Position numbers and translations under genes: made by a program | In this document: positions 40,277-46,226 of the stretch, piece by piece | Numbering within the stretch: the first letter of the stretch is position 1 | Layout of the letters: every line of letters starts with the position of its first letter | Source: a virus | Reading direction: 5' to 3' (one strand) | UHGV virus genome: UHGV-0351052 | DNA: 64,000 nt | Notes under the pieces: model-generated | What the model saw: the letters and a program-made list of their open reading frames with translations, nothing else | Databases searched by the model: none | What the model was told of the DNA's origin: nothing

Positions 40277-40758
40277 TTAGCCTTATATTCAATAACAGGA
40301 CATACTTTAGCTTTACGAGCTTTTAAAAATTCGACGATAATAGATTTCTTGGGTTGAATAGGCTCAAGTCCATTTTTGATTCGTTCTTCGTTTTGTACAA
40401 TGAACTCAATTTCTTTATTGAGCTTTCGGTCGTTATATTTGTCTAACAACCAGGAAGGACCAATTACCGCCCCGACAGCAATAAGAACCATAACCGATAA
40501 TGCTAAAATGCCTATACCAATTGAAGCCGGAACTAATGTCCATAGACTACTAAAGACAAAGAATTTAATTAAAATTTCTTGGCCAATTATTGCGGCACCT
40601 GCTAAAGTTGCAAATCCAACAATTGAAACAGCTAATACCGGGAGAAACGTTTTCCAAAAATAAGCACATAACGTTTTTGGACGATTCCATGTGCTATTAA
40701 ATGCCGAGTAAATTTTATAGTGCCAAGAGTTTTCATTAATAATCATAATTATAATCAT
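40273..40758 (-). CDS. hypothetical membrane protein (161 aa)
   Basis: Multiple hydrophobic helices. Confidence 0.5.
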   Translation of the reverse strand: MIIIMIINENSWHYKIYSAFNSTWNRPKTLCAYFWKTFLPVLAVSIVGFATLAGAAIIGQEILIKFFVFSSLWTLVPASIGIGILALSVMVLIAVGAVIGPSWLLDKYNDRKLNKEIEFIVQNEERIKNGLEPIQPKKSIIVEFLKARKAKVCPVIEYKAK

Positions 40759-41276
40759 CCTTTCATTGAAGGTGTAACAGTTGTTAAATACTTAATCATA
40801 GCTTCAGCTTCTGATTTTGATAATGAAATTTCTTCATTGTTTTGACGAATAGAAATAAAATCCGGATGACGGTCACCACCGGCTTTTAAAACACACATAT
40901 AAGTATCAGTTTCATCTTCAATATTTGAAATGATTGAAGCAGTTCCACACGAATGTGGTTTTTGATAAATCAATACAGCTTTTCTTCCACCGTTTGACTG
41001 TTCATAAACTTTTAATACATCAAACAAATCACTTCTTTTATCAATAGCTAAAATGTTATTTTCATCTTCAATGTTAAATCCTTCGGATACTTCATAAAGT
41101 GTCACCCATAAATCACCTATATCGATAGTAGCATTTTCCTTTCCATGACTTTCAAGAGCATGACAAATTTTCTTAATTTCGTCATAACTCATTTTAATAA
41201 TATCATCTCCTTGAATAAGGAAGATGTCATTTTTAAATTCAACACGAATTAAACCGCTTCCACTTGAAATAAACAT
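40755..41276 (-). CDS. hypothetical protein (173 aa), paralog of next gene
   Basis: C-terminal similarity SKSEAEAMIKYLTTVTPSM vs TKDEAIALKTYLDSVIPTM. Confidence 0.5.
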   Translation of the reverse strand: MFISSGSGLIRVEFKNDIFLIQGDDIIKMSYDEIKKICHALESHGKENATIDIGDLWVTLYEVSEGFNIEDENNILAIDKRSDLFDVLKVYEQSNGGRKAVLIYQKPHSCGTASIISNIEDETDTYMCVLKAGGDRHPDFISIRQNNEEISLSKSEAEAMIKYLTTVTPSMKG

Positions 41277-41282
41277 ATTTCC

Positions 41283-41837
41283 TCACTTTGAAATCATAGT
41301 TGGAATGACAGAATCAAGATAAGTCTTTAACGCAATAGCTTCGTCTTTGGTAAATGTGACAATATGCGCTCGAAAATCATCAATTTGACGAATAGTTAAG
41401 ACATCTCCATCTTCATAGCATTTTGACACATTTAAAATAGTTTCATCATTCTGATTACAGGAGTTAGTAATAATAGCATTGCAATTTTTAAGCCATTTTA
41501 AACTATGTTTTCTTTCATTAGAATAATAAAAATATTTAATCTTAGCTATAAAACTATCCCAATGGATAACTGATAAACACATTGACTCACTTTTAATATT
41601 AAATCCTGGGCATGAAGAATAAAAATGAATTTTGTGCTCATCATTGATGCTTACTATTTTATCAGTATAAGGATATTCAATTTGGGTTAAATGAATGATT
41701 TCACTAGGCGTAAAATACAGCATATCGTCTTCTTGCGTCAAACGATACATATTATTTACTTTTTCTATAGCCAATTCACCAAAAAGTGGACTAACTTCTA
41801 ATACTAATCGTTTCATATTAATCCTTTTTATTGGCAC
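41283..41837 (-). CDS. hypothetical protein (184 aa), paralog of previous gene
   Basis: See previous. Confidence 0.5.
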   Translation of the reverse strand: MPIKRINMKRLVLEVSPLFGELAIEKVNNMYRLTQEDDMLYFTPSEIIHLTQIEYPYTDKIVSINDEHKIHFYSSCPGFNIKSESMCLSVIHWDSFIAKIKYFYYSNERKHSLKWLKNCNAIITNSCNQNDETILNVSKCYEDGDVLTIRQIDDFRAHIVTFTKDEAIALKTYLDSVIPTMISK

Positions 41838-42096
41838 GAATTTGTTCTAAAATTTTAGAGTATTCCTTTGTATCAGATTTACGTACAATCGATACACTAT
41901 AAGGCATACTATCGGTGTCTTTTATAAAGCGTTCCAAATGACACTCTAACAAAATTTCTGGATTATAAATCGTGTACATCAAATTACCTGTTGCTCCACG
42001 ATATTGACAGATTTCTACTGATTGAGCATCATTCCACAATTTTGTTAAAACTAAATCACCTACTTCTAATTTAGGAAAGCCCATGTTATTCACCAA
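41818..42096 (-). CDS. hypothetical protein (92 aa)
   Basis: ORF track. Confidence 0.5.
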   Translation of the reverse strand: MVNNMGFPKLEVGDLVLTKLWNDAQSVEICQYRGATGNLMYTIYNPEILLECHLERFIKDTDSMPYSVSIVRKSDTKEYSKILEQIRANKKD

Positions 42097-42271
42097 TTAA
42101 AGTTTCAATATAAGAATCAAGATTTACTTTAGCTTCTTCCATAAGAGTTTTGTATTTAATCTTGTTAGCATGTCCGGAGAAAGCTGATTCATCAATAACT
42201 GTTGCTGTATGAACAGCTTTACTATACGTCTCAATTAATTCTCTTAATTTAAAAGCCTGCTCACTTGTCAT
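42086..42271 (-). CDS. small helical protein, paralog family member (61 aa)
   Basis: N-terminus MTSEQAFKLRELIE; family pattern M-x-[ST]-x-EQ-x-K. Confidence 0.5.
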   Translation of the reverse strand: MTSEQAFKLRELIETYSKAVHTATVIDESAFSGHANKIKYKTLMEEAKVNLDSYIETLIGE

Positions 42272-42402
42272 TACATACTCCTCTGAATCATATCAATAAT
42301 GTTGTTCACCAGATTATAAGTAAACATTGGGTAATTATATTGAATCATCACATACACAACAAACAAAACTTTCATTCTCTTCTCCTTGGCAGTTGACAAG
42401 AT

Positions 42403-42433
42403 TACTATACCATAACCTTGCCAACTTGTAAAC
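42403..42433 (-). promoter_or_regulatory. T4-type early promoter
   Basis: attactatacca -10 region and gtaaac 42428-42433. Confidence 0.5.
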
Positions 42434-42435
42434 CG

Positions 42436-42609
42436 TTAAATGTTGTTTTCAATAAAATTCTGAAGCTTTGTGTGAGCATCAACCATGATTTTCATTTCTT
42501 CTTTGGCGAAAGCTGTACCTCTTTCCCGAGCAGAATACTCATAGTCAGAAACTGCATTAGCATATTCTTCAATTAGCTTCATTAAAAACATCTGCTTTTC
42601 AGTTTTCAT
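42436..42609 (-). CDS. small helical protein, paralog family member (57 aa, not in ORF track)
   Basis: Hand-translated MKTEKQMFLMKLIEEYANAVSDYEYSARERGTAFAKEEMKIMVDAHTKLQNFIENNI. Confidence 0.4.
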   Translation of the reverse strand: MKTEKQMFLMKLIEEYANAVSDYEYSARERGTAFAKEEMKIMVDAHTKLQNFIENNI

Positions 42610-42793
42610 TGTTCCACCTAATCATTTCAAGATATTGAACTAACTTAGCTTTAGATTTATCCAAATCCTTTTTAGCTGCTTCTATACCGTCGTATGAATA
42701 TCCTTCACAATGCTCAACTGCTAATTGGTATGAATCTATTTCAATATCACGTGCTAATTTAATGATTTTTTCAAACTGTTCACGTGTTAGCAT
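42599..42793 (-). CDS. small helical protein, paralog family member (64 aa)
   Basis: MLTREQFEKIIKLARD. Confidence 0.5.
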   Translation of the reverse strand: MLTREQFEKIIKLARDIEIDSYQLAVEHCEGYSYDGIEAAKKDLDKSKAKLVQYLEMIRWNNEN

Positions 42794-42795
42794 AA

Positions 42796-42999
42796 TTAAA
42801 CTCTCGTATTATGATCGATAATTTCATCAAGAAACATATCTAACGCTTCTATAGCATTATCCACTTTAGTTTCAAAGTCTTTAATGCCTTTATTCGAAAT
42901 ACCCGATGAATACCAAGCAAAGTCAATCAGCTCTTCATCTGCTTTGCGAATTGAAGCCACTAATTCCTTAATTTTATCCGCTTGTTCGATACTAATCAT
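42796..42999 (-). CDS. small helical protein, paralog family member (about 67 aa)
   Basis: Internal start [16 protein letters not shown]. Confidence 0.45.
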   Translation of the reverse strand: MISIEQADKIKELVASIRKADEELIDFAWYSSGISNKGIKDFETKVDNAIEALDMFLDEIIDHNTRV

Positions 43000-43187
43000 T
43001 ATTCCACCACATATGAAAGAGAGAATATTGCACACGCCATGTGAGTTGCAACTTCATCACACATATTATAACGTTTCTTAAGAAGTTCTACAAGTTCTTC
43101 ACTAGTGACTTCATCCATGTCGACGAAAAAATCACCATTAATGATGACGTAGATATTTCCTTCTTGATTAAGTGCTTCAATTTTCAT
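42999..43187 (-). CDS. hypothetical small protein (about 62 aa)
   Basis: Start [10 protein letters not shown] with AGGAG Shine-Dalgarno; ORF track gives longer 42999-43232. Confidence 0.45.
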
Positions 43188-43212
43188 GATGTTCTCCTCT
43201 TTATCCGATGGT

Positions 43213-43245
43213 TGTATAGTACCACGGCTCAAACGGAAAGTAAAC
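43213..43245 (-). promoter_or_regulatory. T4-type early promoter
   Basis: gttgtatagtaccac and gtaaac 43240-43245. Confidence 0.55.
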
Positions 43246-43260
43246 CGGTAAAATGAAAAA

Positions 43261-43278
43261 AGTCTCCCGAAGGAGACT
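43261..43278 (-). terminator. UUCG-tetraloop hairpin terminator
   Basis: agtctcc-cgaa-ggagact. Confidence 0.6.
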
Positions 43279-43282
43279 AATG

Positions 43283-43669
43283 TTATTCGAGGGAAAGAAG
43301 ATACTTACTCTGGTAAAACATTCCAGTAATATCATCTATCGTGCTTTGGATGGCTGGAGGCATTTCTTTATAAATGCTGTTAGATTGGTCTAGTATGCGA
43401 TCAATCATTTTAATTGTGTCGGTAGGAAGTTTACTGGCATCTGGAATTGAAGGTGTGTATTTTCTACCAGAATACCCCAAATATTGCTCACCAAATTTAT
43501 CAATCAAATCTGGCAACTCGGAGAAAATAAAATCGTATGCTTTGTGTCTAGCATAACTTTTAGTTTCAAAATGTGCAGAATGAAAATAAGCTTGTGCAGC
43601 CATTAATAAACCTAAGTATTCATCTGCCTTTGAAGGTTTTCCACTTTGTGAAAAGTCGCTGAATTTCAT
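43283..43669 (-). CDS. hypothetical protein (rI.-1-like, 128 aa)
   Basis: ORF track; position. Confidence 0.5.
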
Positions 43670-43959
43670 TCAGTCTCCAATTTAATATTCATAATTCTAG
43701 CGTATGATTGTGCCATCTCCGCGCCTCGTTCTATACATTCAAAATCAGAAGAGCACGGGTCATTTTTATAGGTCGTTCTCATAAAACTATAGAATTGTTC
43801 AGACGATTCTACGCTTTTATTTTCAAAAAGCATATAAACGTGTCTAATACCAGATTCCATAAATTTATCAAAATGAGGATCGACATTCGCTTCAATCGAT
43901 GGAGATAAAGCAAACGCTAATCCTAGCATGGCAAATAGTGCCGTTGCTTTTAAGGCCAT
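43666..43959 (-). CDS. rI: lysis inhibition antiholin RI
   Basis: 97 aa with N-terminal signal-anchor; matches T4 RI from memory. Confidence 0.7.
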   Translation of the reverse strand: MALKATALFAMLGLAFALSPSIEANVDPHFDKFMESGIRHVYMLFENKSVESSEQFYSFMRTTYKNDPCSSDFECIERGAEMAQSYARIMNIKLETE

Positions 43960-43971
43960 AAAGGCCTCCTA

Positions 43972-44184
43972 TCATTTTTGCCCTGTATTTACTTTATGCC
44001 GATGCACGGCCTTAACTTTATCAAGGTATTTTTCAAAATTTCGCAATCTAGTATAGTCTGCCGGAGATTGGTTGAGTGATACTTCTCGACGCAAAGCTGA
44101 AATGATATTTCCAACTTCCCTACGAATTTCATCTAATTGAAGCACAGTAAGATTGCGAAGTTGCTTTTCAGTTAATTGTAGCAT
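43972..44184 (-). CDS. hypothetical protein (rI.1-like, 70 aa)
   Basis: ORF track. Confidence 0.5.
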
Positions 44185-44226
44185 ATATACCCCTTTAGTT
44201 AGATAAACCTATTTATAACTTTTGCA

Positions 44227-44808
44227 CTAACCGAGCTTTTTAGTTAATTCATTCCAATGTTTTCTACACAAAGAAACATAAATTTCATCACCAATACAGA
44301 TTTGATTACCTTCTTTAACGGGTGTTCCATCTTCCATTAATCGAGCTGTCATAATCGCTTTTTTACCACAATGACAAACTGCCTTTAGTTCAATAAGTTT
44401 ATCTGCGATCGCCAAAAGTTCTTTAGAACCTTCAAACAATTTTCCAGCGAAATCAGTCCTTAATCCATAAGCCATAACAGGAACATTATATGTATCAACA
44501 ATTCGGCTCAATTGATGCACCTGTTCAGTTTTTAAAAACTGGGCTTCATCTACAAATACACAATGAATATCTTTTTGTGCTTCAGCCCATTTATAGAACT
44601 CAAAAATATCCATATCATCTGTAATAATATTTGCTTCCTGCCTAATTCCAATGCGAGAAACGACTTCACAGACAGAATCGCGAGTATCAATAGCAGGCTT
44701 AAGAACTAATACACTCATTCCACGTTCTTTATAATTATGTGCAGCAGTCAAAAGAGAAGCAGATTTTCCAGCATTCATTGCTGCATAAGTAAAAATTAAA
44801 CTCGCCAT
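44227..44808 (-). CDS. tk: thymidine kinase
   Basis: 193 aa; Walker A NAGKSA; matches T4 Tk. Confidence 0.9.
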   Translation of the reverse strand: MASLIFTYAAMNAGKSASLLTAAHNYKERGMSVLVLKPAIDTRDSVCEVVSRIGIRQEANIITDDMDIFEFYKWAEAQKDIHCVFVDEAQFLKTEQVHQLSRIVDTYNVPVMAYGLRTDFAGKLFEGSKELLAIADKLIELKAVCHCGKKAIMTARLMEDGTPVKEGNQICIGDEIYVSLCRKHWNELTKKLG

Positions 44809-44809
44809 C

Positions 44810-44998
44810 TTAGTCCTTAGTTAAATTTTCTAAATATGTTTTTAAATCATTTTCAGCTTTATCGATAGATTTTACTAATTCGTAATATGTTTCGGCATCT
44901 CCATATTCAGAAGATATTTCAAAAGACAAATCCTTTTCTAAACTAATAATTTCACCAACTAAAAATAATATTTCGTTCTTTTGTTCGCGAGTAATCAT
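44810..44998 (-). CDS. small helical protein, paralog family member (62 aa)
   Basis: MITREQKNEILFLVGE. Confidence 0.5.
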   Translation of the reverse strand: MITREQKNEILFLVGEIISLEKDLSFEISSEYGDAETYYELVKSIDKAENDLKTYLENLTKD

Positions 44999-45180
44999 AA
45001 GGAATTTATATAATCAATAAGTTCTTGTTCTTTATTATCGAATTCTTTAGAAAGTTCTTCGTACTCGTTTGCACTAAAAGGACCGCATTCATTACAAACT
45101 TTTTCCAATTCACTATTTTTATCCATAACTTCGTGGATAAGAGAAAAGAGTCTGTCTTTTTGTTCTTTGCTTAGGCTCAT
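44995..45180 (-). CDS. small helical protein, paralog family member (61 aa)
   Basis: MSLSKEQKDRLFSLIHE. Confidence 0.5.
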   Translation of the reverse strand: MSLSKEQKDRLFSLIHEVMDKNSELEKVCNECGPFSANEYEELSKEFDNKEQELIDYINSL

Positions 45181-45346
45181 ATATTAATTTCCAGAAGTTT
45201 TAAAATAATTCGCTTTTGCTTAAATATTTCCATAGTTAAATGATCAGTATCTTTTTGGCCAATTCCAATGGCAAAACCTTTATTAGCAGCGAGTTCAATT
45301 AAATTATCAAGTTCACGTGACACTTCATATTGTAACTCAGAACTAT

Positions 45347-45559
45347 TCATTTCGGTTTACCTTCTTTAACGAAATCTGGATAAGGATAAAATCCCGAATA
45401 AAATCCTTCACCTTTATGATTGATGCATCCTTTATTAGAACAATAGCACCAATAATCGAAATCACAAGCCATTTCATCGTTGCATAAAGCAAAAACAACT
45501 GGCCATTTACACTTTTCACAATGGGCATTTTTAAGAATACTAGTTTGGCTCATAACCAT
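45347..45559 (-). CDS. Cys-rich small protein (70 aa), possible zinc binding
   Basis: Nine Cys including CEKC and CxC pairs. Confidence 0.45.
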   Translation of the reverse strand: MVMSQTSILKNAHCEKCKWPVVFALCNDEMACDFDYWCYCSNKGCINHKGEGFYSGFYPYPDFVKEGKPK

Positions 45560-45777
45560 GTCACCTTTAAGCAGTATTCTTCTACATGTTGTTTACGACC
45601 TTTCTTATCAATAAAGGTATATTCAACGAATGTTCCAATGTAGTCTTTATCTACATCATGTGGACTATTAATTGGACATTTAGTACGGCAAATGCGTTCC
45701 CATTGACGAATAATTACTGCCTTATTCTTTGGGTCATATGGATGTGGATAATGTATATTCATAATAATGGTTCCCAA
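45550..45777 (-). CDS. hypothetical protein (75 aa)
   Basis: ORF track. Confidence 0.5.
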   Translation of the reverse strand: MGTIIMNIHYPHPYDPKNKAVIIRQWERICRTKCPINSPHDVDKDYIGTFVEYTFIDKKGRKQHVEEYCLKVTWL

Positions 45778-46226
45778 TCAACAATCACAATTTCTAATTT
45801 AGAGGAATATGTATCTAAAATCCCCTCAATAATATCCCAGTTCCCTTTACCTATGCCTGCACCAATCCTAGGCATATAGATTGTAGGTTTAATCAGTTTA
45901 TTTTCACCAAACTCATTTAATTCTAACATACAATTCATTAAAGCGGAATACTCAAAATTTGGCCCTGGTTGAAATTGAGTATAAAGATTGAAGCAGTAAG
46001 CTTTATGAGTCCTAAAGTATTTTTCATAGACTGAATAAGAACCAAGTTTAGTTACATCACCCCATTCAGTCTGTAATTTATCAGCTTCCAAAATTTTAGG
46101 GAAAGCTTTGGTTAATTGACCTGCGACTCCAGCTTTCATCGTATGAAAACAATTGCATCCATGCGCAATATTTTTACCTTCAGCGAAAAGGGCGACAATA
46201 TCGCCCTTGATATATTTTACAATCAT
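45759..46226 (-). CDS. macro-domain-like protein (putative ADP-ribose binding/hydrolase)
   Basis: GDIVALF...NIAHGCNCFHTMKAGVAGQLTKAFP and IGAGIGKG motifs resembling macro-domain signatures. Confidence 0.5.
   Translation of the reverse strand: MIVKYIKGDIVALFAEGKNIAHGCNCFHTMKAGVAGQLTKAFPKILEADKLQTEWGDVTKLGSYSVYEKYFRTHKAYCFNLYTQFQPGPNFEYSALMNCMLELNEFGENKLIKPTIYMPRIGAGIGKGNWDIIEGILDTYSSKLEIVIVDWEPLL

What the first reader, a model, noticed from the sequence alone, without database searches (positions are those of the whole stretch)
42086..45180. Family of at least six small paralogous helical proteins flanking rI and tk
Six ORFs of 57-67 aa share a common N-terminal pattern (M-x-[ST]-x-EQ-x-K-x-x-x-L...) and similar acidic helical character: 42086-42271, 42436-42609 (not in ORF track), 42599-42793, 42796-42999, 44810-44998, 44995-45180. 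Repeated duplication of a tiny gene in an accessory region suggests diversifying selection, as seen for small anti-defence or host-takeover proteins.
Basis: seen in the sequence. Interest (0 to 1): 0.5.

Follow-up and report, generated by a model that had tools for sequence, protein, structure and literature searches.

The report
Six small helical-hairpin phage paralogs (DUF7438)
The six tiny genes are true, anciently duplicated relatives, already catalogued as T4 genes mobD.2a/.3/.4 and tk.1/.2 in Pfam family DUF7438; they make small two-helix proteins early in infection that the phage does not need in the laboratory and whose job is still unknown.

Summary
The window is a T-even phage, about 98% identical to wV7, RB14 and T6. 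The six minus-strand ORFs are the known genes RB14ncORF101c, mobD.2a, mobD.3, mobD.4, tk.1 and tk.2.

- **Homology.** Pairwise BLAST is not significant. All six match Pfam PF24219 (DUF7438) end to end at 56-67 bits (cut-off 25). In leave-one-out profiles, each left-out protein is the top remaining hit among 1217 window ORFs.
- **Count.** There is no seventh member in the 64 kb window.
- **Fold.** AlphaFold2 gives a 2-helix antiparallel hairpin (pLDDT 91 and 95), which is a generic fold. Rop is the only solved full-length analogue found, and it shows no sequence relation.
- **Conserved positions.** The conserved positions are the a/d core and the helix N-caps. The "MxTxEQ" motif is structural.
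- **Published T4 data.** The RNAs are early. MobD.3, MobD.4, Tk.1 and Tk.2 proteins were detected. All five T4 copies are non-essential.
- **Copy number.** In the same genomic region it ranges from 0 to 6 across T4-like phages.
- **Selection.** Orthologues are under purifying selection (dN/dS 0.03-0.5), not diversifying selection.

The function is unknown. My best guess is that they are accessory protein-binding modulators for host takeover or counter-defence. The family is already known, so interest is low to moderate.

The parts
44995..45180 (-). tk.2 orthologue, 61 aa, DUF7438 member. Its stop overlaps the tk.1 start (ATGA).
   Evidence: PF24219 at 67.4 bits. Matches RB14 tk.2. AF2 gives a hairpin, H5-30/H37-60, pLDDT 91.3. 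The T4 protein was detected, with early RNA. Non-essential in T4.
44810..44998 (-). tk.1 orthologue, 62 aa, DUF7438 member. It ends 1 nt before the tk start.
   Evidence: PF24219 at 55.6 bits. Matches RB14 tk.1. The T4 protein was detected. Non-essential. Absent, or fused with tk.2, in several Tequatroviruses.
42796..42999 (-). mobD.4 orthologue, 67 aa, DUF7438 member.
   Evidence: PF24219 at 59.4 bits. Annotated in RB14. T4 MobD.4 has early RNA and early protein. Non-essential. T4 and SP1 carry a 60-aa allele with a 7-aa loop deletion.
42599..42793 (-). mobD.3 orthologue, 64 aa, DUF7438 member. It overlaps mobD.2a by 11 nt.
   Evidence: PF24219 at 64.1 bits. It is 97-100% identical in five Tequatroviruses, with 17 synonymous and 2 non-synonymous differences, dN/dS 0.03. 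T4 MobD.3 has early RNA and early protein.
42436..42609 (-). mobD.2a orthologue, 57 aa, DUF7438 member.
   Evidence: PF24219 at 59.0 bits. Annotated as mobD.2a in RB14. AF2 gives a hairpin, H4-30/H36-56, pLDDT 95.5. AGGTGG lies upstream of the ATG.
42086..42271 (-). RB14ncORF101c orthologue, 61 aa, DUF7438 member. Absent from T4. Its start overlaps the mobD.2 stop (TAATG).
   Evidence: PF24219 at 58.2 bits. phrog_4859 at E 1e-38, with cross-hits to phrog_653 and phrog_2758. The exact sequence occurs in RB3 and RB5.
43216..43245 (-). Early-promoter-like sequence (GTTTAC ... TACTAT) upstream of mobD.5. It probably drives mobD.5, mobD.4, mobD.3 and mobD.2a.
   Evidence: Read from the sequence. 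A mobD.5 promoter and a RegB-insensitive transcript are documented for T4 (PMC1702504). That this stretch is the same promoter is an inference.
43261..43278 (-). Terminator-like hairpin (AGTCTCC-TTCG-GGAGACT followed by a T run) between rI.-1 and the mobD.5 promoter.
   Evidence: Found by the terminator scan and visible in the sequence. A terminator is annotated at the same place in G4498 and SP1.
42404..42432 (-). Early-promoter-like site (TTTACA-17-TG-TATAGT) between mobD.2a and mobD.2. It probably drives mobD.2 and ncORF101.
   Evidence: Found by the promoter scan at 10/12 with TG and visible in the sequence. Its position corresponds to T4 Pe57.9/Pe57954 (PMC6024815). The correspondence is an inference.

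Best explanation
**Shown.** The six ORFs are anciently duplicated members of one phage protein family, Pfam DUF7438. They correspond to T4 genes mobD.2a, mobD.3, mobD.4, tk.1 and tk.2, plus a sixth copy that T4 lacks. Each is predicted to fold as a single acidic antiparallel two-helix hairpin of about 60 residues. The family-wide conserved residues are the a/d hydrophobic stripe of each helix (with Ala at the centre), a terminal hydrophobic cluster, and the two helix N-caps. The shared "M-I-T-x-E-Q" start is therefore read as a structural capping motif and not an active site. The genes lie in early operons. In T4 the RNAs are early, four of the proteins are detected, and every copy can be lost in the laboratory.

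**Inferred.** The hairpin is a stable scaffold whose exposed surface and loop have diverged in each paralogue. The copies would then act as small stoichiometric protein binders that inhibit or modulate different host factors, or possibly phage factors, during takeover or counter-defence. They may act as dimers forming a Rop-like four-helix bundle, and their functions may be conditional or partly redundant.
For: - **Family membership.** All six score 56-67 bits against PF24219, cut-off 25. Leave-one-out profiles recover each member, and PHROG subgroup profiles cross-hit.
- **Fold.** AF2 gives hairpins with pLDDT 91.3 and 95.5.
- **Conserved positions.** The hydrophobic columns fall on a heptad pattern and the polar conserved columns are T4/E6/Q7 and S/T36.
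- **Coding and constraint.** dN/dS is well below 1, for example mobD.3 with 17 synonymous against 2 non-synonymous differences.
- **Expression.** T4 RNAs are early, and MobD.3, MobD.4, Tk.1 and Tk.2 proteins were detected (PMC9697503 supplement). Promoter-like sequences, a terminator and overlapping start/stop codons are present.
- **Dispensability.** All five T4 copies are classed Non-essential by HIDEN-SEQ. The T4 segment nrdC.11-mobD.3 can be deleted (PMC9825161).
- **Accessory behaviour.** There are 0-6 copies in the same region in other T4-like phages. Only 46 clusters at 50% identity were found among 1.84 billion proteins.
- **Context.** Nearby genes include tk.4 (AdfM, anti-DarTG2), nrdC.1 (anti-Septu) and an Acb2-type gene.
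- **Subfamily-specific conservation.** Examples are the LAVEHCEGYSY loop in mobD.3 and helix 1 in mobD.2a.
- **No enzyme or nucleic-acid-binding signature.** No other Pfam, NCBIfam or PADLOC family matches.
Against: - No partner, phenotype or oligomeric state is known.
- None of the five T4 genes is named as a hit in the text of the HIDEN-SEQ paper. In the one comparison table I saw, all had q = 1.0.
- Purifying selection on orthologues is not the arms-race signature often seen for counter-defence genes.
- The "anti-defence island" context is guilt by association. Synteny in T4-like phages is inherited by descent.
- I could not run a multimer prediction.
Confidence: 0.45

Rival explanations
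1. The proteins are Rop-like regulators. They would form homodimeric four-helix bundles that bind RNA or DNA and tune early phage or host gene expression.
Against: The proteins are acidic (net -2 to -8), and no basic surface patch is conserved across the family. The hairpin fold is generic.
Confidence: 0.1
2. The proteins are small partners or regulators of adjacent phage enzymes, for example a subunit or modulator of thymidine kinase or of other P-loop kinases.
For: A DUF7438 gene lies directly upstream of tk in Tequatrovirus, Mosigvirus, Dhakavirus, a Klebsiella phage and Edwardsiella-type phages. tk.1 ends 1 nt before tk. In an unrelated contig, one distant member abuts an AAA_33/Zeta-like kinase. 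The candidate relative PseT.1 abuts polynucleotide kinase.
Against: The adjacency to tk can be explained by inherited gene order. Four of the six copies are not next to tk. Karamvirus fGh-Ecl01 has tk but no detectable copy in the region. The homology of PseT.1 is only tentative.
Confidence: 0.08
3. The resemblance is chance. Under this view these are short, acidic, helix-prone ORFs with a compositionally similar N-terminus and are not homologues.
For: Pairwise BLASTP E-values are all >= 0.12.
Against: All six give full-length matches to a curated profile at more than twice the cut-off. Leave-one-out recovery ranks each left-out protein first among 1217 ORFs. The heptad register and the loop position are shared across 35 family representatives.
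Confidence: 0.01
4. The genes are decaying, functionless remnants of old duplications that persist only because they are small.
For: All copies are non-essential. Copies are lost, fused or frameshifted in some genomes.
Against: There is strong purifying selection on mobD.3, tk.2 and mobD.4. The proteins are detected during infection. Reading frames remain intact across genera.
Confidence: 0.05

Closest known systems
Pfam PF24219 (DUF7438); PHROGs 653, 2758 and 4859; T4 genes mobD.2a, mobD.3, mobD.4, tk.1 and tk.2 (UniProt P39238, P39237, P13306, P13307)
   Same: These are the same genes. All six score above the family threshold. The exact protein sequences are already in public phage genomes. 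The gene order is that of RB14, T6 and wV7.
   Different: Nothing essential differs. This phage carries six copies against five in T4. The extra copy is RB14ncORF101c, and mobD.2a is intact here.
Rop/Rom, the ColE1 repressor of primer
   Same: It has the same size and the same antiparallel two-helix hairpin with a small-residue core.
   Different: No sequence or profile relation was found. Dimerisation and RNA binding are untested for DUF7438. The fold match is not specific.
Small accessory anti-defence genes of the same T4 region: tk.4/AdfM (anti-DarTG2), nrdC.1 (anti-Septu) and vs.4/Acb2
   Same: They are early and non-essential, and they lie in the same variable nrdC-tk-vs segment.
   Different: There is no homology. 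Those proteins have defined folds or activities and a defence-specific phenotype. The DUF7438 genes have none reported.
T4 PseT.1 (75 aa, unknown function)
   Same: It shows the same N-terminal and C-terminal helix motifs, and it aligns end to end with the family profile: E 2.4e-4 in a whole-T4 scan, hhalign probability 58%.
   Different: Its loop is longer, it is below the Pfam threshold, and it lies at a different locus outside this window. The homology is tentative.

Membership tests
Pfam DUF7438 (PF24219) | Whole-protein score at or above the curated gathering threshold of 25 bits | tested here: met
   The six score 58.2, 59.0, 64.1, 59.4, 55.6 and 67.4 bits, each covering essentially the whole 57-position model.
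Pfam DUF7438 (PF24219) | Homology that does not depend on the curated model. This guards against circularity, since the Pfam seed may contain these very genes. | tested here: met
   In leave-one-out HMMs, the left-out protein is the top non-training hit among 1217 ORFs, E 0.022 to 9e-7. Cross-hits between PHROG subgroup profiles reach E 3e-6 to 3e-3.
Pfam DUF7438 (PF24219) | Single-domain protein of about 57-67 aa, predicted to be a two-helix hairpin, found in T4-like phages | tested here: met
   Lengths are 57-67 aa. AF2 gives hairpins with pLDDT 91 and 95. The 112 close homologues are all from T4-like phages.
Rop/Rom family | Sequence or profile similarity to Rop | tested here: not met
   hhalign probability is 0.08%, there is no Pfam Rop hit, and there are no PDB sequence hits.
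Rop/Rom family | Homodimeric four-helix bundle that binds RNA kissing complexes | not testable with these tools
Only the monomer fold is similar.
gp59-type helicase loader (label carried by phrog_4859 and RefSeq records) | Similarity to T4 gp59 or its Pfam domains | tested here: not met
   BLASTP against T4 gp59 gives E 0.9, and there is no gp59 Pfam hit. The label looks like an annotation error.
Molybdopterin-guanine dinucleotide biosynthesis protein MobD (label carried by many NCBI records) | Similarity to a molybdopterin biosynthesis family | tested here: not met
   Pfam and NCBIfam show no such hit. I infer that the name arose from the T4 gene symbol mobD, a homing endonuclease neighbour.
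Phage anti-defence or host-takeover proteins (a functional class) | A defence-specific or host-specific phenotype, or a host target | not tested
In published screens the genes are non-essential and are not reported as hits.

The most novel reading that the evidence does not exclude
The DUF7438 copies form a partly redundant array of hairpin binders built on one scaffold. Each would have a differently evolved surface that neutralises a different host immunity protein or host factor. Single-gene knockout screens would miss them because paralogues cover for each other, or because the relevant hosts were not tested. Deleting the whole set would then expose a host-range or defence-sensitivity phenotype.
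Probability: 0.25. Interest if true: 0.6.

Novelty: already known. Interest (0 to 1): 0.3.

Why it matters
T4 is the best-studied large phage, yet about half its genes have no known role. This family accounts for five or six of those genes, and four of the T4 proteins were detected during infection. Recognising them as one scaffold family has three practical uses:
- It corrects two misleading database names ("helicase loader" and [quoted passage not shown]).
- It explains the shared N-terminal motif as a helix cap.
- It argues for knocking out all copies together when searching for a phenotype.

If the copies prove to be binders of host factors, they would be compact, easily engineered inhibitor scaffolds. 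As it stands, the finding is a correct rediscovery of a catalogued family of unknown function.

Tried and rejected
- **Pairwise BLASTP among the six.** Not significant. Profile tests replaced it.
- **A seventh member in the window.** None found with the 6-sequence or the 35-sequence HMM. RB32ORF110c (45177-45350), mobD.5 and rI.1 were tested by Pfam and hhalign and rejected.
- **DNA-level repeats or gene conversion between paralogues.** None found.
- **PDB sequence search.** No hits.
- **Relation to Rop.** Rejected.
- **NCBIfam and PADLOC.** Nothing found.
- **The "helicase loader" label.** Rejected.
- **Literature searches.** Searches for DUF7438, PF24219, phrog_653, mobD.3, mobD.4 and tk.2 found no paper text. 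Two searches failed because a term was too short.
- **Emp (gp94) of Mosigvirus AV110.** It is a 109-aa alpha/beta protein near motA and not a member. The paper's main text names no DUF7438 gene.
- **bas37_0203 (anti-Druantia III).** It is a 528-nt gene of nrdC.8 size and not a member.
- **tblastn of divergent members against GenBank phages.** Zero hits for one query and one hit for the other.
- **The idea that the hairpin tip is the common binding site.** Dropped. Loop conservation is strong in mobD.3 but weak in mobD.4.
Full report
**What the window is.** Region 41800-45600 is 97-98% identical to phages wV7, RB14 and T6 and matches 596 GenBank phage records, almost all of them T-even relatives. 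In the RB14 annotation the six ORFs are RB14ncORF101c (42086-42271), mobD.2a (42436-42609), mobD.3 (42599-42793), mobD.4 (42796-42999), tk.1 (44810-44998) and tk.2 (44995-45180), all on the minus strand. All six exact protein sequences are already in public phage genomes.

**Checking the observation.**
- A MAFFT alignment shows 17-31% identity, with E6, L14, G33 and L54 (tk.2 numbering) invariant.
- Pairwise BLASTP is not significant; the best E-value is 0.12.
- Profile methods are decisive. All six hit Pfam PF24219 (DUF7438) over essentially the full 57-position model, at 55.6-67.4 bits against a cut-off of 25.
- PHROG profiles of three separate subgroups (653, 2758, 4859) cross-hit members of the other subgroups.
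- The Pfam seed may contain these genes, so I built leave-one-out HMMs from five proteins. Each was searched against all 1217 stop-to-stop ORFs of the window. The left-out protein was always the first non-training hit, with E from 0.022 to 9e-7, and the next hits had E > 0.3.
- The similarity is therefore full-length and homologous. It is not an N-terminal compositional artefact.
- Neither the six-sequence HMM nor a 35-sequence family HMM finds a seventh copy in the 64 kb.
- The adjacent small ORFs RB32ORF110c, mobD.5 and rI.1 are not detectable members.

**Anatomy.**
- AlphaFold2 predicts a single antiparallel helical hairpin for tk.2 (helices 5-30 and 37-60, pLDDT 91.3) and for mobD.2a (helices 4-30 and 36-56, pLDDT 95.5).
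- In a 35-sequence alignment of family representatives, the conserved hydrophobic columns fall on a heptad a/d pattern. In tk.2 numbering these are 11, 14, 18, 21, 25 and 40, 43, 47, 50, 54, 57, 61.
- The central core positions 21, 43 and 50 are Ala-rich, and an extra hydrophobic cluster (3, 15, 58) sits where the two termini meet.
- The conserved polar columns are T4, E6, Q7 and S/T36, at the start of each helix.
It is a structural feature and not a catalytic or binding site. This reading is an inference from the model and the alignment.
- The proteins are acidic: pI 4.3-5.3 here, with a family median of 4.4.

**Fold comparisons.**
- Foldseek against PDB gives no hit with E < 0.3.
- Foldseek against BFVD returns only uncharacterised proteins, the top ones from T4-like phages.
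- No PDB sequence relative exists.

**Expression and dispensability (published T4 data).**
- In the time-resolved omics of Wolfram-Schauerte et al., mobD.3 and mobD.4 are "early RNA, early protein".
- In the same data set tk.1 and tk.2 are "early RNA, middle protein", and mobD.2a has early RNA but no protein recorded (PMC9697503 supplement).
- The window shows a terminator-like hairpin at 43261-43278, followed by a GTTTAC...TACTAT promoter-like sequence and a strong Shine-Dalgarno site before mobD.5.
- A mobD.5 promoter and a RegB-insensitive transcript are documented for T4 (PMC1702504).
- A second promoter-like site (TTTACA-17-TG-TATAGT) lies between mobD.2a and mobD.2. Its position matches T4 Pe57.9/Pe57954 (PMC6024815).
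- Start and stop codons overlap or abut within each run of genes, consistent with translationally coupled early operons.
- HIDEN-SEQ transposon mapping classes mobD.2a, mobD.3, mobD.4, tk.1 and tk.2 as Non-essential (bioRxiv 10.1101/2025.11.20.689424 supplement).
- The T4 segment nrdC.11-mobD.3 is deletable (PMC9825161).

**Distribution and copy number.**
- The word-indexed search found 112 close homologues, all from T4-like phages and all falling into the six orthologue groups.
- An exhaustive HMMER search of 1.84 billion cluster representatives found only 46 clusters with E <= 1e-3, nearly all single-domain proteins of 57-67 aa.
- Six-frame HMM scans gave the following counts:

| Phage (genus or host) | Copies in the same region |
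|---|---|
| This window and RB14 | 6 |
| T4 (whole genome scanned) | 5 |
| slur03, G4498 | 5 |
| SP1 | 4 |
| JS09 (Mosigvirus) | 3 |
| IME08 (Dhakavirus) | 3, one of them unannotated |
| Citrobacter phage Ursula | 2 in tandem |
| Klebsiella phage Roth79 | 1 |
| Enterobacter phage fGh-Ecl01 (Karamvirus) | 0 |
| Edwardsiella-type phage | 1 strong, 2 weak |

- One member lies in a phage that is not T4-like, next to PolA and an SNF2 helicase.

**Selection.**
- The paralogues share no DNA-level repeat, so the duplications are old.
- Against five close Tequatroviruses, pooled NG86 estimates were:

| Gene | dN/dS | Note |
|---|---|---|
| mobD.3 | 0.03 | 17 synonymous, 2 non-synonymous differences |
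| tk.2 | 0.06 | |
| mobD.4 | 0.18 | |
| mobD.2a | 0.30 | |
| ncORF101 | 0.51 | only 9 substitutions |
| tk.1 | not estimable | too few substitutions |

- These values are comparable with neighbouring genes. This is purifying selection, not diversifying selection.
- Diversity arises by other routes. The slot next to tk holds a 52-54% identical allele, and only one copy, in slur03, G4498 and SP1.
- mobD.4 has 75-84% identical alleles, including a 7-aa loop deletion.
- Single genes that fuse the front of tk.2 to the back of tk.1 exist (P0014, P0087).
- Conservation within subfamilies is concentrated in different places: the LAVEHCEGYSY loop in mobD.3, helix 1 in mobD.2a, and both helices but not the loop in mobD.4.

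**Function.**
- No enzyme, nucleic-acid-binding or defence-related family matches.
- The database names "helicase loader" and [quoted passage not shown] are unsupported.
- The neighbourhood contains proven counter-defence genes: tk.4/AdfM against DarTG2 and nrdC.1 against Septu. An Acb2-type gene is also nearby.
- The text of that study names no DUF7438 gene as a hit. The five T4 copies had q = 1.0 in the comparison table I saw.
- My best-supported reading is a stable hairpin scaffold with paralogue-specific surfaces. The copies would act as small stoichiometric protein binders in host takeover or counter-defence, possibly as dimers and possibly with conditional or overlapping roles.
- The family, fold prediction, expression and dispensability are shown. 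The mechanism is inferred, and I put it at roughly 0.4.
- The rivals are Rop-like nucleic-acid binding, partnership with Tk or other kinases, chance similarity, and decay. They are listed with their evidence in the rival section.

**Novelty.** The family is curated in Pfam and PHROGs, the genes are named in T4 and RB14, and the exact sequences are public.

Noticed in passing
Outside the window: T4 NC_000866 134908-135135 (L016 15209-15436, minus strand): T4 PseT.1 (75 aa, next to polynucleotide kinase pseT) looks like a distant DUF7438 relative with a longer loop. It scores E 2.4e-4 in a whole-T4 six-frame scan and aligns end to end by hhalign (probability 58%, E 1e-4), but it is below any Pfam threshold.
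   Followed up: partly
window 40755-41276 and 41283-41837 (minus strand): A second tandem paralogue pair lies next door. The RB32ORF097c-like gene and mobD.1 both carry Pfam PF24449 + PF24448 (y05I-like putative transcription factor N- and C-terminal domains).
   Followed up: no
T4 reference NC_000866 58049-58165 (L005 17997-18178): The 38-aa mobD.2a of the T4 reference is a frameshifted version of the 57-aa gene seen here, and the C-terminal half is readable in another frame. The T4 stock used for HIDEN-SEQ has an intact 174-nt mobD.2a. No MobD.2a protein is recorded in the T4 proteome data. This is either a reference sequencing error or a difference between stocks.
   Followed up: partly
P0014 (Escherichia phage UFV-AREG1) and P0087; slot corresponding to window 44810-45180: Some phages carry a single gene whose N-terminal half is tk.2 and whose C-terminal half is tk.1. 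I read this as unequal crossover between the neighbouring paralogues. Other Tequatroviruses have one copy here that is only 52-54% identical to tk.2.
   Followed up: partly
window 45759-46226 (minus strand): This is the tk.4 orthologue, a macro-domain protein (Pfam Macro, 25 bits). A 2025 preprint names T4 Tk.4 AdfM and reports it as an anti-DarTG2 factor.
   Followed up: no
window 42086-42271, 42599-42793 and 42796-42999, and their database records: Misleading names are spreading through the databases. "Helicase loader" is used for the ncORF101 and tk.1 groups, and [quoted passage not shown] for the mobD.3 and mobD.4 groups. Neither name is supported.
   Followed up: yes
L018 2277-3622 (metagenome contig SRR26329164_315546): The distant DUF7438 member P0142 ends exactly where a 385-aa AAA_33/Zeta-toxin-like P-loop kinase begins. 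Members of this family also sit next to thymidine kinase, and the tentative relative PseT.1 sits next to polynucleotide kinase. The recurring kinase neighbour may be coincidence.
   Followed up: partly
window 41818-42096 and 45347-45559 (minus strand): Two neighbouring small genes belong to other recently defined phage families: Phage_tudor (PF24144, 136 bits) and Phage_zn_bind (PF23895, 101 bits).
   Followed up: no
L007 7840-8022 (Escherichia phage IME08, HM071924): An unannotated ORF in IME08 is a weak DUF7438 hit (E 1e-3). It lies between mobD.1 and orf90, which suggests a missed gene call in that record.
   Followed up: no
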